Positions 44,380 to 56,840 of a stretch of 64,000 bases of DNA are shown here, in pieces (position 1 is the first letter of the stretch; the number at the start of each line of letters is the position of its first letter). The position numbers and the translations under genes are program-made. Below the pieces are notes generated by a model. It was not told where the DNA came from, made no database searches, and was given only the letters and a program-made list of their open reading frames with translations. This DNA is from Gekko japonicus (taxonomy: Eukaryota), in contig NW_015167177.1 in assembly GCF_001447785.1 (NCBI RefSeq), positions 1 to 64,000 on the forward strand, in the 5' to 3' direction.

Positions 44380-45090
44380 ATGAAAGGCCTCATTGGCCCG
44401 ACTTCCCGCTCAGCTCGCCGCAAGCCTCCGCGCGCCTCTCTCAGGCCTGCTACAGAGAGACGCACTCTGCCACCTCCCCTCACCCTCGCTCCACAATTGG
44501 CTGCCTCCGTCCCGGAAGGCCCGTGCGTCATTTCCGGGGAGGCCGCCATCTTGTCGGCGGTTGGTGGAGTTCGACGCGGCTCAACCTGGGACGCCTCCGC
44601 CTGCCTCGTTGCCGGCCTGTTTGCCCGCTTCTTCGGTCGAAGCCGCCTGTACCGTACCGCCGCCGGTCCCCGGTGCCGCCATGGCCCACAACTGCCCTGT
44701 TGTGGGCGCCGGGAATTGCCATCCGCCGCCGCAGCACCAGGGGGCCCAGCCGCCGCATCCGCAGGCCGGAGCCGTCTTGTCGCCCCCGCTGCCGCTCCAA
44801 AGCGCGGGCCCGAAGCCGGCAGCCTCGGGCAAGCAAGGCAACGTCCTGCCCCTGTGGGGGAACGAGAAGACCATGAACCTGAACCCCATGATCCTCACCA
44901 ACATCCTCTCCTCGCCTTACTTCAAGGTGCAGCTCTACGAGCTGAAGACCTACCACGAGGTGGTCGATGAGATCTACTTCAAGGTGAGCGAGTCGGGAAG
45001 GGGATTGGGAGGGTGGCAGCGGCGGAGGCCCGCTCCTGCCTCGTGGGTCGTCTCCAGCTCCGGCTTCTCCCGCTGCTGCCGTCATTCCTT
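44380..45090 (+). promoter_or_regulatory. PRPF38B: PRPF38B CpG-island promoter
   Basis: Strong CpG island. YY1 consensus GCCGCCATCTT at 44542-44552, ETS-like CCGGAA/TTCCGG at ~44512-44537, ATTGG boxes at ~44392 and ~44496, TGCGTCA at 44524. Confidence 0.85.
44681..44983 (+). CDS. PRPF38B: PRPF38B coding exon 1 (pre-mRNA splicing factor 38B)
   Basis: Strong Kozak context gccgccATGG. Encodes ...SGKQGNVLPLWGNEKTMNLNPMILTNILSSPYFKVQLYELKTYHEVVDEIYFK. Donor AAG|gtgagc. Confidence 0.97.
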
Positions 45091-45635
45091 TATAGATGTG
45101 TGAGAATCTGTCTCGGTTTCGCATTCCCTTCTGCCATATTTTTGCGAAACAATATTAGGCATTTTTTTACGATCCCAAAATCAAGTCAAGGACTGAGCTT
45201 CATTGCTCTTAAAAGAGCTCAGTGTGGCTGTAAGAATTCTTTGTGGCTTTTATTTTTTCTATGATGAATAGCTGTAAAGCTCTCTGCTATAGTCTGAACC
45301 ATATTGTTCAGGTTGGGGATATTTCGGTATTATTCGTGTATGGAGGGGGCGACACATTATGCAACTGTTCCACGTTGTCGAGATTTGGGCTGGTCAGACT
45401 CCTAAACCTGATGCTGGTGCCAGTTGAAACATTATATCTGTGTGTATAAGCAAGGGGGGGGGGAGAGAAACTGGAGAGTGTCATTGTTAATGTTATTTAC
45501 TCTAGATATTTGTAATCGTATTTTTCCCAACAACTGAGACCCAAGGCAGACTTCAAAGAAAAAACATAATTTCAAGTAAAACATGCACCATTATTTAGCA
45601 TTTAAAAGTCTCCTTGAAGACTTGCAGTTATACAG

Positions 45636-45826
45636 TTTATATTCCACCTTTCAACACAGTAGGGACCAAAATTAATTTACATTGTTGTCTTCATTTTCAT
45701 AACCCTGTGAAGTAGATTAGGATGAGAATGTGTAACTGATTCACTCAGCACTCAGGAAATTTCCATGGCAGAGTGGGGATTTCCCCCAGATCATAGTGTG
45801 ACAATTTAACCACTACATCACACTGG
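45636..45826 (-). mobile_element. tRNA-derived SINE, decayed
   Basis: tttatattccacc..aaccctgtgaagtagattagg..ttaaccactacatcacactgg (A box on the minus strand). Confidence 0.6.
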
Positions 45827-48709
45827 TTGTTGTGCCTTGAATGGTTATGATAGTGCATTTTTCTATTTTGCTCAAGTCCTGGCACAGAGCTATTTTATCT
45901 CTGTGTTTATTAAGGCTCATAATTGAAATATTTGTGCATATGAGTTATGTCTCTTTTTTTAAAATGAGGTACTTGTCCTGATATGGAGAGTAGGATCTCT
46001 TCAGCTTGATATATTTGGTCCCTGTCTTTAGTCTACTGTGTCCATTTGGTAGGGCCTCTTGTCAAGCAAATACAAATTCTGCAGTCTGAAAGTTGATCAG
46101 GAGTTGCTTATTTTCTGAATGCTCATTCTAACTTTAAAGTTGATTATTTTGTGCTGGAGTGGGAAAGAGGGATCCTCTGGAGTTAGCAAAATACCTTGAA
46201 ATTGATCCAACAACTAGATGGGTCAAAAGTTCACCTATTATCTTTGTGTCCTTATGAACCCTTTGGCCCTTTTAAGATGAGACCTGACTGACTGACTGAA
46301 TAACATGGATAGAGACCTGGAGTTTGCATTTTTTTAAATGAAAATATATTATGATGTTGGCATAATTTGATATGCTAATAGATCGTGTTCTTTCTGTAAC
46401 CTAGAGGGAAATTGTTAAATGTATTTAGCTGTGCTGAACTGTGGCCTTTTCCACTTCTGTGTCTGAACTGTGTGTATCTCCAAAATGAGAGAAAGAGGCA
46501 GCTTTCATTGTATTAGCTTTTTCTTCCTGTGATTGTGATGCAGCATGTCTTTTTATAATTGATAAAACACTTACCTTGTGCAATCTATTTTTGACTAGCA
46601 GATATTCTCAGCTCTAAAGTTTGGTATGTCTAACCAAAATGAAGTTGTTTCAATTGAAGAAAAAATGTTGCTTTAATCTACTTTGCAGGAGGTAGTTCTG
46701 ATTTTAAGACGCAGTGTTGTGTTTCAGTTTAAATTAAATTTGGGAAATCTGTCAAGATAATGTATTATATTTGTCAAGATGGCTTTGTTCATTTATGTGA
46801 ATTCTAAATAATATAGACAAAAAAAGATGAAATGCTCTCCAGTGAGACATGCTATAAATACTTTCAAAGGGATTTATAAAGGATGTGCACTGCACGCATA
46901 TTCGCTCAGAAGTAAGCTCCACTGACATTGGGATTTACTCTCTTGTAAATGGCCGCAGCATTGTACTTGGTGCCTGTATACATGCATCCCAAACGTTTGG
47001 AATGGCACCCACAACCTTGGCAATCCTTAAACTGCGCCAAACTGAATTATTCAGGAGGGTGTGTACAGGTAGTAGGGCTATATGATAATGATTCAGGAAG
47101 ATGCTTTAAGAAAGGGAAAGGGACTAAACTATACTGATATGTATAGCAAGTACTATCTGTCATTGTGTGTATTAATGTGTAACTTTTTCATTGTTTAACA
47201 AATCATGTTAATACTTTCACCTTCTTTCTACTTTGTTTTGGATTTTTGCTTCCTTTCAGATGTACACAAGCCTAATTGTATTACCTTGTTCCTTGGATGT
47301 CCTATCCTATTGATTGTATTGAATGATACTGTGTAATCTGCTTTGCATCTCCATGAGAAAGGGGAATTATACATAATGTAAATATATTATCCAGTCTCTT
47401 TGTTCCTCTGGCAGAATGACATTCCATTTGCAGAAAAGGGAGTGGTAATTTCTTTCTTCTACTGCAGACCCTCACTTTTCCCCCATGTTGTTCCAAGGAT
47501 CTGCTGATCCCCCCAGGAAAAAACTTTCCAGTGTGCTCAGGTGACCCTCACTGGGAAAGTCCAAATCTATATAGTCCACAGGTGGCTGGATACACACCAG
47601 TATATTTGTTCATGAAGGGGCTGAAATGTAGACATTTAAATTTTTTGTCCTCCAATGGGTTAAGTATTAATATGCCTAATTATTCTAATTCAGCACTCAG
47701 TTTCAGAAAAGAGGATGACTGCCTTACGCTTTTTCTGTAGTCTCATTCATGAAGGTTTTGAGCAACTTAAACATAATTTAATTAGCATGGGAGGTCTGCT
47801 GCCTAGGCAAATTCCAATTGCTGTTTACTATAGCAGAGAACCACTTGGGACAAGTGTGCTGCCCCTTCTATACAATTTTTTGTATCGAAACAATTTGTTG
47901 GTTCCTTTTTGTTATTAAAATATGATTTATAATCTAGAAGAGTGAGCAAAGACTTTCACATTTAATATTCTATCTGATTTTTTAAAAATTGCAATATTTA
48001 TACATTACTTTGAAGCCACAGAAGCTCCCAAGGTGGTCTACATTAAAAACTGAAGCATTTCATCATAATAAAATAAGACTGTTGTAGGTATTTTATTTAT
48101 TTATTTATTTATTTGATTTATATTCTGCCCTCCCCACAAGTGGGCTCAGGGCGGATTACAGCTGTTTTTTCTTCAGTGGTGAAGCCAGGGAACATAGCAT
48201 CCCTTTTCCCTGTAAGGATGATGCAGGGCAGAATCATGAAGCATTAATCTTCCCTAGAGAGTTGTGCAACTGCTGCCTGCTTGGTTGCTAATGACAACAT
48301 GTCTCAGGTTCTGTTTGATGTTTCAGAGATGTGAGAGGGCAGGGCTGTCCAATTACCACTGTCTCCCAGATAAAGATTCCCTGGTGGGTCAGCCCACACT
48401 GTCCAGGCATTGTATGACTTGTTTCACAGCCCTTTGAGAACCTTGTCCTGTCTAACTCTGTCCTCTTATCTGAGCAGACAGGACATTCAGTGCTCCTTCC
48501 CAGCCCTCTCAGTGTTCTACCCTTTTCCCTCTTTATAAGGCCATTTGAAAGTCCCAGGACAACACTAGTGACCTACAGCACCAGATTTTGATTTCCATAA
48601 TACCATAATATTATGATATCATAATCATGATATTGATTAGATCCTCCCCACAGCAATAAACCTTTCTCATGGCTCATTCTCTTTTGGCCTGACCTACATT
48701 AGACAAATA

Positions 48710-48866
48710 CAGGGCTTTTTTTCTGGGAGAACGTGCTGGAATGGAGTTCCAGAACCTCTTCAACGAAATTCTTCTAAAAATGTTTAAAAGTTCATGAGTT
48801 TTCAGTACAGATAGGAAACTTCATTTCCCTCTTGAGAGTTCCGGCACCTCTTTAAAAAATGCCCTG
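48710..48866. mobile_element. 157-bp hAT-type MITE
   Basis: Termini CAGGGCTTTTTT and AAAAAATGCCCTG. Perfect 8-bp TSD GACAAATA. Confidence 0.88.
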
Positions 48867-49380
48867 GACAAATATGAGGATAAAATGTATACAAAACTAT
48901 TGATCATTGTAGAAAAGGCAGGATAAAAATGTGACAGGAGAGGGACATTGACATCATGTTGTATTTTAGAGGTGCTTAGACTTAGATGGCAGATGTAGGC
49001 TAGCTTTAAATTATTTATTTTTTTCTTTATCAACAGCTTCTTCCTGTACCGTATTGTAACTACTTTTAAGATGTGCTTATATTCAGAATGAATCTGCTGT
49101 GCAACTTGGCAGCTGTTCCAAGAGGGAAAGTCCAGTAAAGTATGAGATGGGCAGATGTGTTTAGTAGATTATGTTTTATGAAATACATGTTATATTTGTG
49201 ATATATGTCACTAATTTAAAGATTTACAGTCTGATTCTACATATGCTAAGTTGGAAATCGATATCAGTGAATTCAGTGGGGCTTAGTCCCTGCTAAAGTT
49301 ATAGAGCTGCAGCCTTAGTTTTATGGGCAAGTGTCTATCCCTGCTTCCCCCAGCTCATCACAGAATGTAATATGGTTTTT

Positions 49381-49765
49381 GTTGTTGTTCAATTGCACAG
49401 TCGAGTCCAACTCTTCACGACCCCTTGGACCACATCACGCCAGGCCCTCCTGTCTTCTGTCGTGCTCTGGAGTTTGCTTAATTTCATGTTTGTTGCCTCG
49501 ATAACACTGTCTAACCATCTCATCCTTTGCCGTCCCCTTCTTCTTTGACCTTCAATCTTTCCCAGCACCAGGGTCTTCTCCAGTGAGTGCTCCCTCACTG
49601 TATTTGAGTTTCAGCTTCAGTATCTGGCCTTCCAGGGAACAGTCAGGGTTGATTTCTTTTAGGATTGACTGATTTGATCTTCTTGCAGTCCAGGACACTC
49701 TCAAGAGAGTTCTCCAGCACCGTAATTCAAAATAATCTATTCTTCAGCGCTTGGCCTTCCTTATA
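49381..49765 (-). mobile_element. RTE-BovB LINE 3' fragment
   Basis: SLEKTLVLGKIEGQRRRGRQRMRWLDSVIEATNMKLSKL..DRRAWRDVVQGVVKSWTRL, the BovB C-terminus, followed by a (CAA)n tail. Confidence 0.93.
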
Positions 49766-50464
49766 GCAATGGTATTCCCAGTAGTACTGTACTATGGTAC
49801 TTTCCCCAAAATCTGAATACTGAGCTCCCTTCAAAGTTTGGTTCAGTTATGCTCTTGATATTCTCAAAAAGCTGAGTACCCCAATATCATTCCCTTCCCC
49901 TAAAACATACTTGAAGGTTGGCTCTGAATCAACATACTGGTGTACCTTTTTCTGGCAGTACCCACTGTCCAGCAGGTGAACTCTTCACCAGCAAGCGTTT
50001 CAGTTGTATAAAGATGTAGGAAACAGAGACATAAATAAATCTAGCAGTGACAAGGGAGCCTTCCAGCAGAGCATCCAGTAGCCTCCTTCTCCTGCCGCAG
50101 TCTTCAGGGCACCAGGAATCCTGGGAGAATGTCATTCCCAAGGGTCTGGTGTTAAGTCTAGCTTGAGAGGAGAAAGGAGTGGTAGCAGGGAAAGCTGTAA
50201 TAGGATGAGACCATTCCACACCAAGACCAGATTTTGTAGCACTGTAGGCTCAGTTAGGAATGTACTAGGAGGGCACATCTTACAGCAGCATCTTTACAAC
50301 ATCTTACAGCAGCAAATTCATTAAGATAGCAGGCTTCCTGGTGATGTCCAGCGGCCTCATCAGAGTTCTTCTACACATTACAGTAGGCCAAATGATTGTG
50401 TATATTTAAACTTGCTATATTTAGGGTATATCATTAACTTCATTTCCATTAGTAGTAACAATCT

Positions 50465-51842
50465 CATTTAATGACCTCCAGAGACATCTGGATTGAGACA
50501 GGTCGGTGCTGCTATTGCTTCTTGACTTAACAGCGGTATTCGACATGGTCGATTACGATCTCATGATCCACCGCTTCACCAATGTAGGAATATGGAGGAC
50601 TGCCTTACAGTTTTTTTTATCCTTTCTCCACGGTTGAGGACAGAGGGTGGCACTTGGCAAGAGGGTCTCTCTGTGATACCCACTTGAATGCAGGGTGCCA
50701 CAGGGGTGATCCTCTCACCAATATTGTTCAACATCTACATGCACCGGTTGCGCCCCGTTACCCAGCTCTATCTGTTGATGAGCCAGACTCAGCCCCAGAT
50801 ATTCTGGACAGCAGAGCTGGCTGAAACTAAATCGAACAAAGATGGAAGTTCTGTACCTGAGCTGGGGGGAGGGGGGGTTGGATCAGGAATCAGGCTCCCA
50901 GCCTTGGATGGGGCACCATTGGCGTCAGTGCCGAGGGTGAGGAGCCTGCAAATTATTCTGGATGCCTCACTCTCTATGGAGGCCCAAGTTACCACTGTTG
51001 CCAGGTCAGCCTTCTATCATCTTCAGCAGATCAGGCAACTGGTCCCCTATCTCTCCTCCTGGGAGTTAGCTACAGTGACCCATGGAGTGGTTACTTCCAG
51101 GCTAGATTACTGTAACTCGCTTTACATTGGCTTACCTTGAATCTGATCCAGAAACTCCAGCGAGTGCAAAATATGGTGGTGCGCCTGCTCACAGTCACAC
51201 CTGTGCAGGCATGCATTCAGCCGGTGCTACACCAATTGCACTGGCTACCAATTGAGTACCAGATCCATTTCAATGTATTTGTATTAACCTTTAAAGTCGT
51301 ATGCAGGCTGGGACCAACATCTCTAGAGGACTGTCTCTCCCCATATGTACCCTAGAGAGTCTTGCAGTCTGCTGACCAACATTTGCTGATTGTTCCTGGC
51401 CCAAGGGACGTCCACTTAGCCTTGACCAGGGCCAGGCCTGGTGGAATATGCTCCCATTTGAGATCAGGGCCCTGTGGGACTTATTGCAGTTTCACAGGGC
51501 CTGTAAAATGGAGCTGTTCCATCAGGCCTTTGGCTGAGGCAGCAGATGCCCAATCATTTGGCCTCCCCTGCTGAGAACTTGCCCTGTGAAATCTGCCTAT
51601 GTGAAAGACCTACCATCACAACTTCGGTCAGCGGGTTTCCTGTTTCTGTTGCTTGTTTATTAACATTGTGAGATCCATGAATTGCTGCTAACTAGACCAA
51701 TATTTTCTTGTTTTAACTTTTAACTATTATTGCTTATTTAATCTGTTTTAATTGTTGGATATGTTCTGTTGTTACCTGCCCTGAGCCCGCTTGCAGGAAG
51801 GGAGGGATATAAGTCAAATAAATTAAAATTAAATTAAAATTC
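50465..51842 (+). mobile_element. L2-clade LINE, decayed, in PRPF38B intron 1
   Basis: LSPILFNIYM, SRLDYCNSLYIGLP and LHWLPIEYQIHF motifs. 3' end cctgagcccgcttgcaggaagggagggatataag with an (AAATT)n tail. Confidence 0.9.
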
Positions 51843-51934
51843 ACAATACACAGTGCTTCCCAACAAAGAATCAGAAGGTCATAAATGGCAGCCTGAAATT
51901 AAAGCGAGTTTGATCATTCCCTTTTTGTTTGCAG

Positions 51935-52003
51935 GTCACACATGTCGAGCCTTGGGAGAAAGGGAGCAGAAAAACAGCAGGCCAGACAGGGATGTGCGGA
52001 GGG
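51935..52003 (+). CDS. PRPF38B: PRPF38B coding exon 2
   Basis: tttgcag| acceptor and GGG|gtaagt donor. Encodes VTHVEPWEKGSRKTAGQTGMCGG. Confidence 0.97.
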
Positions 52004-52361
52004 GTAAGTAGAAGTACGTGCCTTCTGAATTTTTGCAGTTTTTTTTTATGAAACCTACTTGTGTATAAAATGAACACTGAACATCTGGCAAATCTAGGAT
52101 TGCTAGCTTTAATCAGTTTAGTTGTTATATCAGTCTCCTAAAGCCTCAGTTAATTAATTGTTAAGGGCATATTTTTATTGGTAGAACTGAGATGGAAGTT
52201 TCCTGTTAAACTGACTCCAAAAAGTTGACTCTGATTTGTTACTGAATCAAAACTTGGGGTGGGGGGGATATTAAATATGATGCTTCTTTCTAAAAATGAG
52301 AGGGAGATTTTTTTCTTTTTTAAAAAAAGTGTATAATTCAAAATGGTAGCCTATAAGGAAG

Positions 52362-53079: not shown

Positions 53080-53231
53080 GTGCGTGGTGTTGGGACTGGC
53101 GGCATAGTGTCTACAGCCTTTTGCCTGCTGTACAAGTTATTTACCTTGAAGCTTACCCGTAAACAAGTGATGGGATTAATAACCCATACAGACTCCCCAT
53201 ATATCAGGGCCCTTGGATTCATGTATATTAG
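53080..53231 (+). CDS. PRPF38B: PRPF38B coding exon 3
   Basis: ctctcaag| acceptor and AG|gtaagt donor. Encodes VRGVGTGGIVSTAFCLLYKLFTLKLTRKQVMGLITHTDSPYIRALGFMYI (PRP38 domain). Confidence 0.97.
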
Positions 53232-53314: not shown

Positions 53315-53375
53315 GTACACACAGCCTCCAACAGATTTATGGGACTGGTTTGAATCCTTTCTTGATGATGAGGAG
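53315..53375 (+). CDS. PRPF38B: PRPF38B coding exon 4
   Basis: cttcaag| acceptor and GAG|gtatgt donor. Encodes YTQPPTDLWDWFESFLDDEE. Confidence 0.96.
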
Positions 53376-54193
53376 GTATGTCAACAAGGGTAATAATTTG
53401 TTTTCCTTTTTTCTTTCGTTTTCTTTCCAAAATCTTAGCTAAAGAAGCTTTGAAATAAAATGCTATAGGTTCCAAATTGTGAATTAAATTAAGATAGACT
53501 TTTTAAACACATGTGTCAAGCAGTAAAAATCCCATCTTTAACTTTATGCAAACTTATTAGGGACTAGGGTGTAGAGCCATGCTAACCATGTCCAAATAAA
53601 TCCAAGAGAAATTTAGTCTCTCCTGCCCGGGTGGGGGGGGGGGGACCGAACACATCCTCAGTGTGATGGCCAAGGTTTGGAGAAATATTGCGGGTTTCAT
53701 ACTTCATGAGAAATTGTTTTTAAAAACAAGTGGACAAAATGTTAAAGAATTAAAGAATTAATTTGGGTTTTGACCAAGAAAATGAACACTTTTATGGCAC
53801 CTGGCCTCTTCATATTTGGTGTAGAAGACATGATGTTCCCTTTTTTTAGGTGAGATTATTTTTTTGTGCCCCAGTTCTTGCTGTAGTATATGATATATTG
53901 AAATATAATTTTTTTGCCCTTTATATGGTAATACAGAAAGATGTTAGTTGTTGAACTCCCCAAAGTCATGGTCATTTTTGGTCCCTCTTTTCCATATTAG
54001 TAAAAAAATGCAGTAATACACAGAGTTAGAGTTTGCCTAAGTTTGTTAAAGATGTGGAAGCTGGTCAGCATTGTATCTCTGTTACATGTACTTGCCTAAG
54101 TGTTGTTAATGCTTTGACTACTTTGTTCATACTCTATTTTTGTGTGCACCTTTTAGGTACTTCATTAAGCTAATGTGTTGTTTTCTTCTTTAG

Positions 54194-54247
54194 ATCTCTG
54201 TGCACCGATTTTATTTGGAAATACTGTATATGAACACTTAAATGTGT
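54194..54247 (+). other. PRPF38B: Candidate poison (PTC-containing) cassette exon in PRPF38B intron 4
   Basis: Branch-like CTAAT at 54170-54174, ttttcttctttag| acceptor, in-frame ISVHRFYLEILYMNT then TAA, and TGT|gtgagt donor. Confidence 0.55.
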
Positions 54248-54281
54248 GTGAGTGCAAGCAGTTTTACATTTAGATTTTGTC

Positions 54282-54469: not shown

Positions 54470-54991
54470 TATTTTTTTGCATAACTCTAAATTAGAAACC
54501 TCACTGCTTCATGGCAGTTGGTTTGCTATTGCTTCCAATTTAAGTAGGGTCCATTTTGTGCCTACAGCTTTTTCTGATCATTTTAGACAGGAAATGAAGT
54601 CGTCCTAAATCTGGTTGGGCCACAGTGTTGAGTGTGATCACTGTCCTCAAAAATGTTACAAATTTAGCTCTAATTATTTTCTATTTGGTGGCATAAAGAT
54701 TCAAGATGACAGTATATGCACCGGCTGTGTAAGGGAATTCGCTGTTAAGAAATGGACCCTTTGGTGTCTGACTGCAGGACTGGTACACACCTGCCTGCAT
54801 ACACACTAAATCAAAATCCCAGCCAGTAACCTATTTGGCCAAATACAAAGGAACAGGAGTTGAAGTGCTTAAGTGATCATATTTGAAACAGGAAAGATGG
54901 CAGTCAGAATAGTTGCATTTGTTTTAAACTGAACCTTAGGCGGCTTCTCACAGTCAGAATCTGTGTTCTGTTTTGTGTTTTATTTTTTAAG

Positions 54992-55215
54992 GACCTTGAT
55001 GTGAAAGCAGGTGGCGGCTGTGTCATGACCATTGGAGAGATGCTGCGCTCTTTCCTTACTAAACTTGAATGGTTTTCTACGTTATTTCCGAGGATTCCAG
55101 TACCAGTCCAGAAAAACATTGATCAGCAAATTAAAGCCAGACCTAGAAAAATCAAGAAAGATGGCAAGGAGGGAATAGAAGAAGTGGAAAGACATACAGA
55201 GCGTAGACGTTCAAG
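54992..55215 (+). CDS. PRPF38B: PRPF38B coding exon 5
   Basis: tattttttaag| acceptor and AG|gttata donor. Encodes DLDVKAGGGCVMTIGEMLRSFLTKLEWFSTLFPRIPVPVQKNIDQQIKARPRK...ERRRS. Confidence 0.97.
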
Positions 55216-55994: not shown

Positions 55995-56840
55995 GTCTCC
56001 AAGAAGGTCCTTGACTCCCAGGAGGTCACCTAGAAGATCAAGAAGCAGAAGTCGTCATCGTGAAGGTCGTGGGTCATCCAGCTTTGATAGAGAACTGGAG
56101 AGAGAGCGAGAACGACAAAGACTAGAACGTGAAGCGAAGGAGAGAGAGAGGGAGAGGCGAAGATCCCGAAGTTCTGATCGGGCATTGGAACGGAGGCGAA
56201 GCAGAAGCAGGGAGAGGCACAGAAGTCGAAGCCGTGATCGAAAAGGAGACAGAAGAGACAGGGAAAGGGAGAGAGAGAAAGAAAATGAACGTAGTAGGAG
56301 GAAAGAGCGGGACTATNNNNNNNNNNNNNNNNNNNNNNNNNNNNNNNNNNNNNNNNNNNNNNNAAATCAAAAGACAGAAAAAGTAAGAGTGAAATTGAAG
56401 AGAAGAGGCACAAAGAAGAAAAAGATGAAAGGAAGCATAGGGATGAGAAAAGAGATGCCAAGAAAGAGAGGAGACACAGCAGGAGTCGAAGTAGGGATCG
56501 AAAGCGTAGGAGTAGAAGTGTGAGTAGGAATGCTGGGAAGCACAGTAGAAGCAGAAGCAAAGAGAAGTCAAGCAAACACAAAAGTGAAAGTAAAGAGAAA
56601 TCAAACAAGCGGAGTAGGAGCAGGAGCAGAGGAAGAACTGATAGTGCTGAAAAGTCCCGAAAACGAGAGCTTAGTCCCAGTAAAGAGAGATCACGGAAAC
56701 GTAGTAAAAGCAAAGAAAGTTCTCATAAGCATGACCCCAGTGATAAGGACCACTCAGACAAACATGATCGTCAGAGGAGCCAAAGTACAGAACGAGAGAA
56801 TCAAGAAAAACAATCTAAAAACAAAGATGAGACTGTATGA
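55995..56840 (+). CDS. PRPF38B: PRPF38B terminal exon (RS/RE-rich domain), interrupted by an assembly gap at 56317-56363
   Basis: gtatag| acceptor. Reads SPRRSLTPRRSPRRSRSRSRH...RDY, then 47 N, then KSKDRKSK...QSKNKDETV and TGA. The frame changes only across the N run. Confidence 0.93.
56317..56363. other. Assembly gap (47 N) within PRPF38B exon 6
   Basis: Run of N. Confidence 1.

What the first reader, a model, noticed from the sequence alone, without database searches (positions are those of the whole stretch)
54121..54281. Candidate poison exon in PRPF38B intron 4: a splicing-factor autoregulatory NMD switch
Seen: branch-like CTAAT 20 nt upstream of ttttcttctttAG, a 54-nt exon (54194-54247) and a GTGAGT donor. 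Spliced to exon 4 (phase 0) it reads ISVHRFYLEILYMNT then TAA. The stop lies 230 nt upstream of the final exon 5/6 junction, which satisfies the 50-55 nt NMD rule. A second acceptor 37 nt upstream (ttttAG at 54155-54156) also reaches an in-frame stop (VLH*), so both choices are unproductive. Known: SR proteins and core spliceosomal genes use conserved poison exons for homeostasis. Inference: PRPF38B is regulated the same way. The ORF track does not show this exon, and it abuts an assembly gap.
Basis: partly seen in the sequence, partly recalled or inferred. Interest (0 to 1): 0.7.

Follow-up and report, generated by a model that had tools for sequence, protein, structure and literature searches.

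The report
Conserved poison exon in lizard PRPF38B
A lizard splicing-factor gene (PRPF38B) holds a 54-base stop-carrying exon-like stretch in its fourth intron whose splice sites match a cassette in fish gene models, so it is likely an old 'poison exon' that would send the message to decay, a kind of switch already recorded for this gene in mice.

Summary
In detail: acceptor, branch motif, 54-nt exon (54194-54247), donor, in-frame stop 230 nt before the last junction. A teleost PRPF38B locus (L002) has a homologous 59-nt cassette in intron 4 that kills the frame by a shift instead of an internal stop. Of 350 retrieved proteins, 27 gene models splice exon 4 to this cassette and 10 use the same acceptor with an inner donor as an in-frame 6-residue microexon; all named ones are ray-finned fish, none shows the lizard peptide. 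A second conserved route, a donor 14 nt into intron 4, also gives an early stop (coral-snake model P0124). Mouse Prpf38b already has two NMD-stimulating cassettes in supplementary tables: 53 nt in intron 1 and 71 nt probably in intron 4; whether the 71-nt exon is this one is open. Splicing in this lizard and autoregulation are untested. The adjoining N block is not an assembly gap. The scan had no earlier PRPF38B note. Verdict: a real, deeply conserved poison exon of a well-known kind; modest interest.

The parts
44681..44983 (+). PRPF38B exon 1, coding part
   Evidence: translation and GT donor; 120 PRP38-family hits
51935..52003 (+). PRPF38B exon 2
53080..53231 (+). PRPF38B exon 3
   Evidence: 98% peptide identity to teleost L002
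53315..53375 (+). PRPF38B exon 4, ends in phase 0
53376..53400 (+). Conserved start of intron 4 with a second GT donor 14 nt in (53390-53391); its use would give an early stop
   Evidence: 23 of the first 25 intron bases equal the teleost locus (read by eye); predicted 8-residue tail, stop 211 nt before last junction; same 8-residue tail in coral-snake model P0124
54155..54156 (+). Weak upstream acceptor AG; use would give 3 residues and a stop
   Evidence: tile not conserved in fish (29 of 100 shuffles reach its score)
54170..54174 (+). Branch-point-like CTAAT
   Evidence: a TTAAT lies at the same distance before the fish acceptor
54179..54193 (+). Polypyrimidine tract and acceptor AG of the cassette
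   Evidence: 14 of 15 bases equal the fish acceptor
54194..54247 (+). 54-nt cassette exon with in-frame TAA at 54239-54241 (likely poison exon)
   Evidence: homologous to 59-nt cassette L002:1942-2000
54248..54253 (+). GTGAGT donor of the cassette
   Evidence: 14 consecutive bases across the donor equal the fish donor (read by eye)
54992..55215 (+). PRPF38B exon 5 (224 nt); its 3' end is the last junction
55995..56840 (+). PRPF38B exon 6 coding part (Arg/Ser/Glu-rich tail)

Best explanation
The stretch 54194-54247 is an exon-like cassette in PRPF38B intron 4, with splice sites shared with a teleost cassette, that is likely spliced in part of the time and would then put a stop 230 nt before the last junction and send the mRNA to nonsense-mediated decay. 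Shown: the sites, the stop, the homology to fish, and fish gene models that use the homologous acceptor. Inferred: inclusion in this lizard, decay, and dosage control. What has been kept since the split from ray-finned fish is the splice sites and the unproductive outcome, not the stop: the fish cassette is 59 nt and shifts the frame into a stop in exon 5. It is one of several unproductive routes in intron 4 (cassette, a donor 14 nt into the intron, read-through). Any escaping protein would lose the last third of the PRP38 domain and the whole Arg/Ser tail. That PRPF38B itself drives inclusion is an untested analogy (about 0.35); cross-regulation by other splicing factors is as likely.
For: Only strict acceptor-donor pair in the window; 11 of 2000 simulated introns have one. 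Of 37 tiles of lizard intron 4 aligned to the fish intron, only 54157-54226 beat all 100 shuffles (37 vs max 32) and it lands on the fish acceptor; 35 of 47 aligned columns identical, against 20 of 50 third codon positions in exon 3. Fish cassette L002:1942-2000 gives a stop 220 nt before the last junction. 27 of 350 retrieved proteins join exon 4 to the cassette, 3 of them (P0032 eel, P0202, P0311) with the frameshifted exon-5 tail; 10 of 350 use the acceptor as an 18-nt microexon. Mouse Prpf38b 71-nt cassette rises from PSI 0.14 to 0.33 (day 0) and 0.135 to 0.27 (day 3) under cycloheximide (PMC11188260 suppl. file 7) and starts 2416 nt after exon 2, against 2259 here. Truncated models stop at Pfam PRP38 position 121-125 of 173.
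Against: No read or junction evidence for this species. 0 of 350 retrieved proteins show the lizard-type tail in a tetrapod (cluster lists showed at most 15 members each). Only one orthologous vertebrate intron was available. One tile in 37 at p<0.01 is weak by itself. The mouse exon is 71 nt, not 54, and 8 mammalian models splice exon 4 to an acceptor giving 4 residues and a stop, so mammals may use different boundaries. Most of the 27 fish models end at or read through the donor rather than joining exon 5. Gene models are predictions whose RNA support I could not see.
Confidence: 0.72

Rival explanations
1. The conserved block is real, but in amniotes the exon actually used is a neighbouring or differently bounded one (the mouse 71-nt exon, the mammalian four-residue-then-stop acceptor), and the 54-nt exon as drawn is minor or vestigial.
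For: Mouse exon is 71 nt. 8 of 350 models (pig, cat, dog, baboon, bat, panda, meerkat, lion) end four residues after exon 4. Reverse-translated, these tails fit the lizard polypyrimidine tract only second best (3.75 mismatches, against 2.9 at 54103) and in fish fit a segment 18 nt after the donor better than the tract, so their place is unresolved. The N block after the donor was not examined and could hold a further donor.
Against: Lizard acceptor and donor both match the fish sites that fish models use. A 15-nt upstream extension of a 56-nt inner exon would also give 71 nt with the same donor (inference).
Confidence: 0.13
2. The conserved sites mainly keep intron 4 unspliced or half-spliced (detained intron or alternative last exon), limiting output by nuclear retention rather than by cassette inclusion and NMD.
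For: 20 of 350 models read straight through the exon-4 donor and most of the 27 cassette models stop at or run past the cassette donor. Human PRPF38B shows intron retention among its isoforms (bioRxiv 2022.12.06.519414, section 7). [quoted passage not shown]
Against: 3 fish models carry both cassette junctions; mouse cassettes respond to cycloheximide and Upf2 loss. Read-through models also arise from pre-mRNA or genomic contigs.
Confidence: 0.11
3. A chance pseudo-exon with no function.
For: Criteria were fitted after the fact; no expression data for this species.
Against: Collinear homology of both splice sites to a teleost cassette that public models use; 11 of 2000 by chance.
Confidence: 0.04

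Closest known systems
Mouse Prpf38b 71-nt NMD-stimulating cassette exon, GRCm39 chr3:108813234-108813304 (PMC11188260, suppl. file 7; 2 of 5 rows seen)
   Same: Same gene, cassette type, NMD-stimulating, cycloheximide-stabilised; begins 2416 nt after exon 2 against 2259 here, so probably intron 4 (inference).
   Different: 71 nt against 54 nt; homology of the boundaries could not be tested without mouse DNA.
Mouse Prpf38b 53-nt poison exon in intron 1 (PMC3446288 Table S7, read whole; PMC11188260 suppl. file 9)
   Same: Same gene and logic: inclusion rises from PSI 0.04/0 to 0.43/0.55 in Upf2-null macrophages/liver, gene level up 2.1/3.8-fold.
   Different: Lies between exons 1 and 2 (555 nt = 506 of exons 2-5 plus 49); a different exon despite the near-equal length. 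No clear counterpart found in lizard intron 1.
Poison cassette exons of SR, hnRNP and core spliceosomal genes (SRSF3, SRSF6, TRA2B, HNRNPL, LUC7L rows of the same Table S7)
   Same: Conserved short intronic cassette with a premature stop in a splicing-factor gene.
   Different: For several of those, feedback by the encoded protein is established (recalled); for PRPF38B none was found. Here the stop mechanism differs between fish (frameshift) and lizard (in-frame stop), and teleosts also use the acceptor for an in-frame microexon.
Human PRPF38B isoform complexity in single cells (bioRxiv 2022.12.06.519414, passages and section 7)
   Same: [quoted passage not shown]
   Different: Coordinates are in a figure I could not see; no NMD or conservation analysis in the text read.

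Membership tests
Poison cassette exon (AS-NMD) | Canonical acceptor, branch site and donor bounding a short intronic exon | tested here: met
Poison cassette exon (AS-NMD) | Inclusion places a stop more than 50-55 nt before the last exon junction | tested here: met
   230 nt in lizard, 220 nt by frameshift in fish
Poison cassette exon (AS-NMD) | Evolutionary conservation of the splice sites | tested here: met
   one teleost locus and 37 of 350 models using the homologous acceptor; no second tetrapod DNA available
Poison cassette exon (AS-NMD) | Conservation of the stop codon itself | tested here: not met
   fish cassette has no in-frame stop; the premature stop arises in exon 5 by frameshift. 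Not a required feature of the class
Poison cassette exon (AS-NMD) | Exon is spliced in, in this species | tested here: inconclusive
   no read evidence obtained; only fish models show the junctions
Poison cassette exon (AS-NMD) | Inclusion isoform stabilised when NMD is blocked | not testable with these tools
   shown in mouse for a 71-nt exon of uncertain identity with this one
Autoregulatory poison exon (SR/hnRNP type) | The encoded protein promotes inclusion of the exon | not testable with these tools
   no paper found
Ultraconserved element (200 nt identical in human, mouse, rat) | Listed ultraconserved element in PRPF38B | tested here: inconclusive
   a recalled uc number found no paper; mammalian DNA not available
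PRP38 family (PF03371), PRPF38B | PRP38 domain and best hits named PRPF38B | tested here: met
   exon-1 peptide retrieves 120 PF03371 proteins, best a gecko (89%) and Pogona PRPF38B (87%); Pfam on relatives

The most novel reading that the evidence does not exclude
PRPF38B intron 4 is a bony-vertebrate-wide feedback switch with several exits: one conserved acceptor that in teleosts yields either a productive six-residue insert inside the PRP38 domain or a frameshifting poison exon depending on the donor, that in squamates has become a pure stop-codon poison exon, plus a conserved +14 donor; PRPF38B protein level itself sets the choice.
Probability: 0.25. Interest if true: 0.5.

Novelty: new member of a known kind. 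Interest (0 to 1): 0.32.

Why it matters
It adds PRPF38B intron 4 to the list of deeply conserved unproductive-splicing switches in spliceosomal genes and shows that the outcome can be kept while the way of making the stop changes (frameshift in fish, in-frame stop in lizard). It gives exact sites for a minigene test of feedback. It does not change the general picture: AS-NMD of Prpf38b is already in mouse supplementary tables, and poison exons in splicing factors are textbook.

Tried and rejected
Sequencing runs: 22 listed, no RNA holder listed among indexed rows, three raw RNA runs added by species label; no read tables were obtained, so this is no evidence either way. Further vertebrate introns: 19 metagenome loci gave one vertebrate gene with intron 4 (L002) and one intronless piece (L003); genome contigs gave 1 irrelevant locus and viral contigs none. 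'Assembly gap' rejected. I first took the mouse Upf2-knockout exon (53 nt) as the counterpart because of its length; Table S7 places it between exons 1 and 2, so rejected. A lizard counterpart of that intron-1 exon: two AG-Asp-stop sites (45191, 49663), neither with a donor at 53 nt; the second lies in repeat-like sequence; not supported. Placing the mammalian four-residue tails by reverse translation was inconclusive. My first fish and lizard exon ends were off by one and were corrected. Supplements without PRPF38B: PMC10123112, PMC6547761, PMC11387194 (one file unreadable), PMC11632617, PMC13187750; main text of bioRxiv 2025.06.26.661736 has 0 mentions, its supplements not seen. Four recalled paper ids (core-spliceosome AS-NMD, ultraconserved-element and poison-exon catalogues) were not held; these catalogues may list this exon. 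A recalled ultraconserved-element number found nothing.

Full report
Gene and observation. The window holds a six-exon PRPF38B gene on the + strand of a squamate, probably a gecko (best hits to the exon-1 peptide: a gecko 89%, Pogona 87%). Exons: 44681-44983, 51935-52003, 53080-53231, 53315-53375, 54992-55215, 55995-56840. The stretch is single-copy in the own genome. The N block that follows is not an assembly gap, because the own-genome locus holds no N there; what it contains was not examined.

Chance. With strict splice-site rules the candidate is the only acceptor-donor pair on either strand of the 64-kb window, and with relaxed rules the only one in the gene's five introns; 11 of 2000 simulated introns hold such a pair. 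The rules were chosen knowing the candidate. The upstream AG fails them (8 of 12 pyrimidines, no branch motif).

Conservation in DNA. A search with the exon-5 peptide gave 19 metagenome loci, one of them (L002) a teleost-like PRPF38B gene with the same exon structure. Of 37 70-nt tiles from lizard intron 4 (53408-54226 and 54470-54991), only 54157-54226 scored above all 100 of its shuffles (37 against a maximum of 32); the next best were reached by 1 and 2 of 100. One in 37 is weak alone, but the alignment lands on a fish acceptor at the collinear place: 35 of 47 columns identical, 14 of 15 in the tract and AG, while third codon positions of exon 3 agree at 20 of 50. By eye, 14 consecutive bases across the donor and 23 of the first 25 intron bases are the same. 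The fish cassette (L002:1942-2000) is 59 nt, has no stop of its own, and shifts the frame to a stop in exon 5, 220 nt before the last junction; an inner donor makes an in-frame 18-nt form.

Use in gene models. Two protein searches and two cluster look-ups returned 350 proteins (clusters listed at most 15 members). By what follows exon 4: 155 canonical, 27 long cassette, 10 in-frame microexon, 20 short read-through, 10 +14 donor or longer read-through, 8 mammalian four-residue tails, 50 other, 70 with no recognisable exon-4 end. The named cassette and microexon models are all ray-finned fish (eel, salmonids, pike, carp, medaka, stickleback, perches and others). Three (P0032, P0202, P0311) carry the frameshifted exon-5 tail, so both junctions; most others stop at or run past the cassette donor. 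The eel tail starts ISLV, close to the lizard start. No tetrapod model with the lizard tail was retrieved. A coral-snake protein (P0124) ends in the 8 residues predicted for a donor 14 nt into intron 4 joined to exon 5, with a stop 211 nt before the last junction in this lizard; fish models P0099 and P0330 use the same donor. These are database models; their RNA support was not visible (that RefSeq/Ensembl short isoforms and the salmon ACN11493.1 entry rest on transcripts is recalled).

What is in print. PMC3446288 (passages; Table S7 whole): mouse Prpf38b has a 53-nt PTC-upon-inclusion exon between exons 1 and 2, PSI 0.04 to 0.43 and 0 to 0.55 in Upf2-null macrophages and liver. PMC11188260 (passages; supplement rows: 2 of 5 in file 7, 2 of 2 in file 9, file 13 not searched): the same 53-nt exon, PhastCons 0.91, and a second 71-nt NMD-stimulating cassette, PSI 0.14 to 0.33 under cycloheximide. 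Using the shared 53-nt exon to convert coordinates, the 71-nt exon starts 2416 nt after exon 2, against 2259 for the lizard cassette, so it probably lies in intron 4; whether it shares boundaries is unknown. bioRxiv 2022.12.06.519414 (passages and section 7) reports two cassettes, alternative donors and retention in human PRPF38B without coordinates in the text. PMC6356181 (passages) reports stress-dependent PRPF38B splicing with primers that by eye lie in exons 1 and 2. PMC12629991 (passages) shows the PRPF38B Arg-rich tail can trap GA-rich mRNAs in speckles, another possible dosage route. Ten searches (listings and abstract starts only unless named above) gave no paper describing an intron-4 poison exon, its fish conservation or autoregulation; key catalogues were not held and bioRxiv supplements are closed, so the exon may be listed there.

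Mechanism. Most transcripts join exon 4 to exon 5. Inferred: a fraction includes the cassette (or uses the +14 donor), ribosomes stop 230 (211) nt before the last exon junction complex and the mRNA is degraded, which caps PRPF38B output; any escaping protein would end at about position 121-125 of the 173-position PRP38 domain, as in truncated relatives, and lack the Arg/Ser tail. Shown: sites, stops, homology, use in fish models, NMD sensitivity of mouse Prpf38b cassettes. Not shown: inclusion in this lizard, decay of this isoform, feedback by PRPF38B.

Verdict. A real, old poison cassette in a core splicing-factor gene (0.72), with different amniote boundaries (0.13), retention-based control (0.11) or chance (0.04) as rivals. 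New member of a known kind; the fish-to-lizard switch from frameshift to stop codon and the teleost microexon option are the only points not found in print. Interest 0.32.

Noticed in passing
window 55995-56840 (exon 6): The coding frame differs before and after the short N block inside exon 6 (frame of the Arg/Glu run before, KSKDRK... frame after), so an indel or true gap in the assembly probably lies there; the joined model stops at 445 residues.
   Followed up: partly
window 53376-53400: Conserved start of intron 4 with a second donor 14 nt in; models from a coral snake and several fish use it and reach an early stop.
   Followed up: yes
L002:1942-1959: Teleosts have an inner donor that turns the cassette into an in-frame 6-residue microexon inside the PRP38 domain (10 of 350 models); the lizard has no GT at that place.
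   Followed up: partly
window 44984-51934 (intron 1): The mouse 53-nt intron-1 poison exon has no clear counterpart here; two AG-Asp-stop sites without a matching donor. Beaver and cat models end one residue after exon 1, fitting that exon (P0016, P0021).
   Followed up: partly
window 52004-52020 (start of intron 2): Rodent, tenrec, elephant-shrew and some fish models extend exon 2 by a few bases and shift frame (P0017, P0122, P0153, P0329), suggesting another conserved alternative donor; not checked in the lizard.
   Followed up: no
window 49300-49750 and 50500-51600: Fragments of retroelements (RTE/BovB-like and L2/CR1-like reverse-transcriptase pieces, names recalled) in intron 1, seen in the ORF list.
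   Followed up: no
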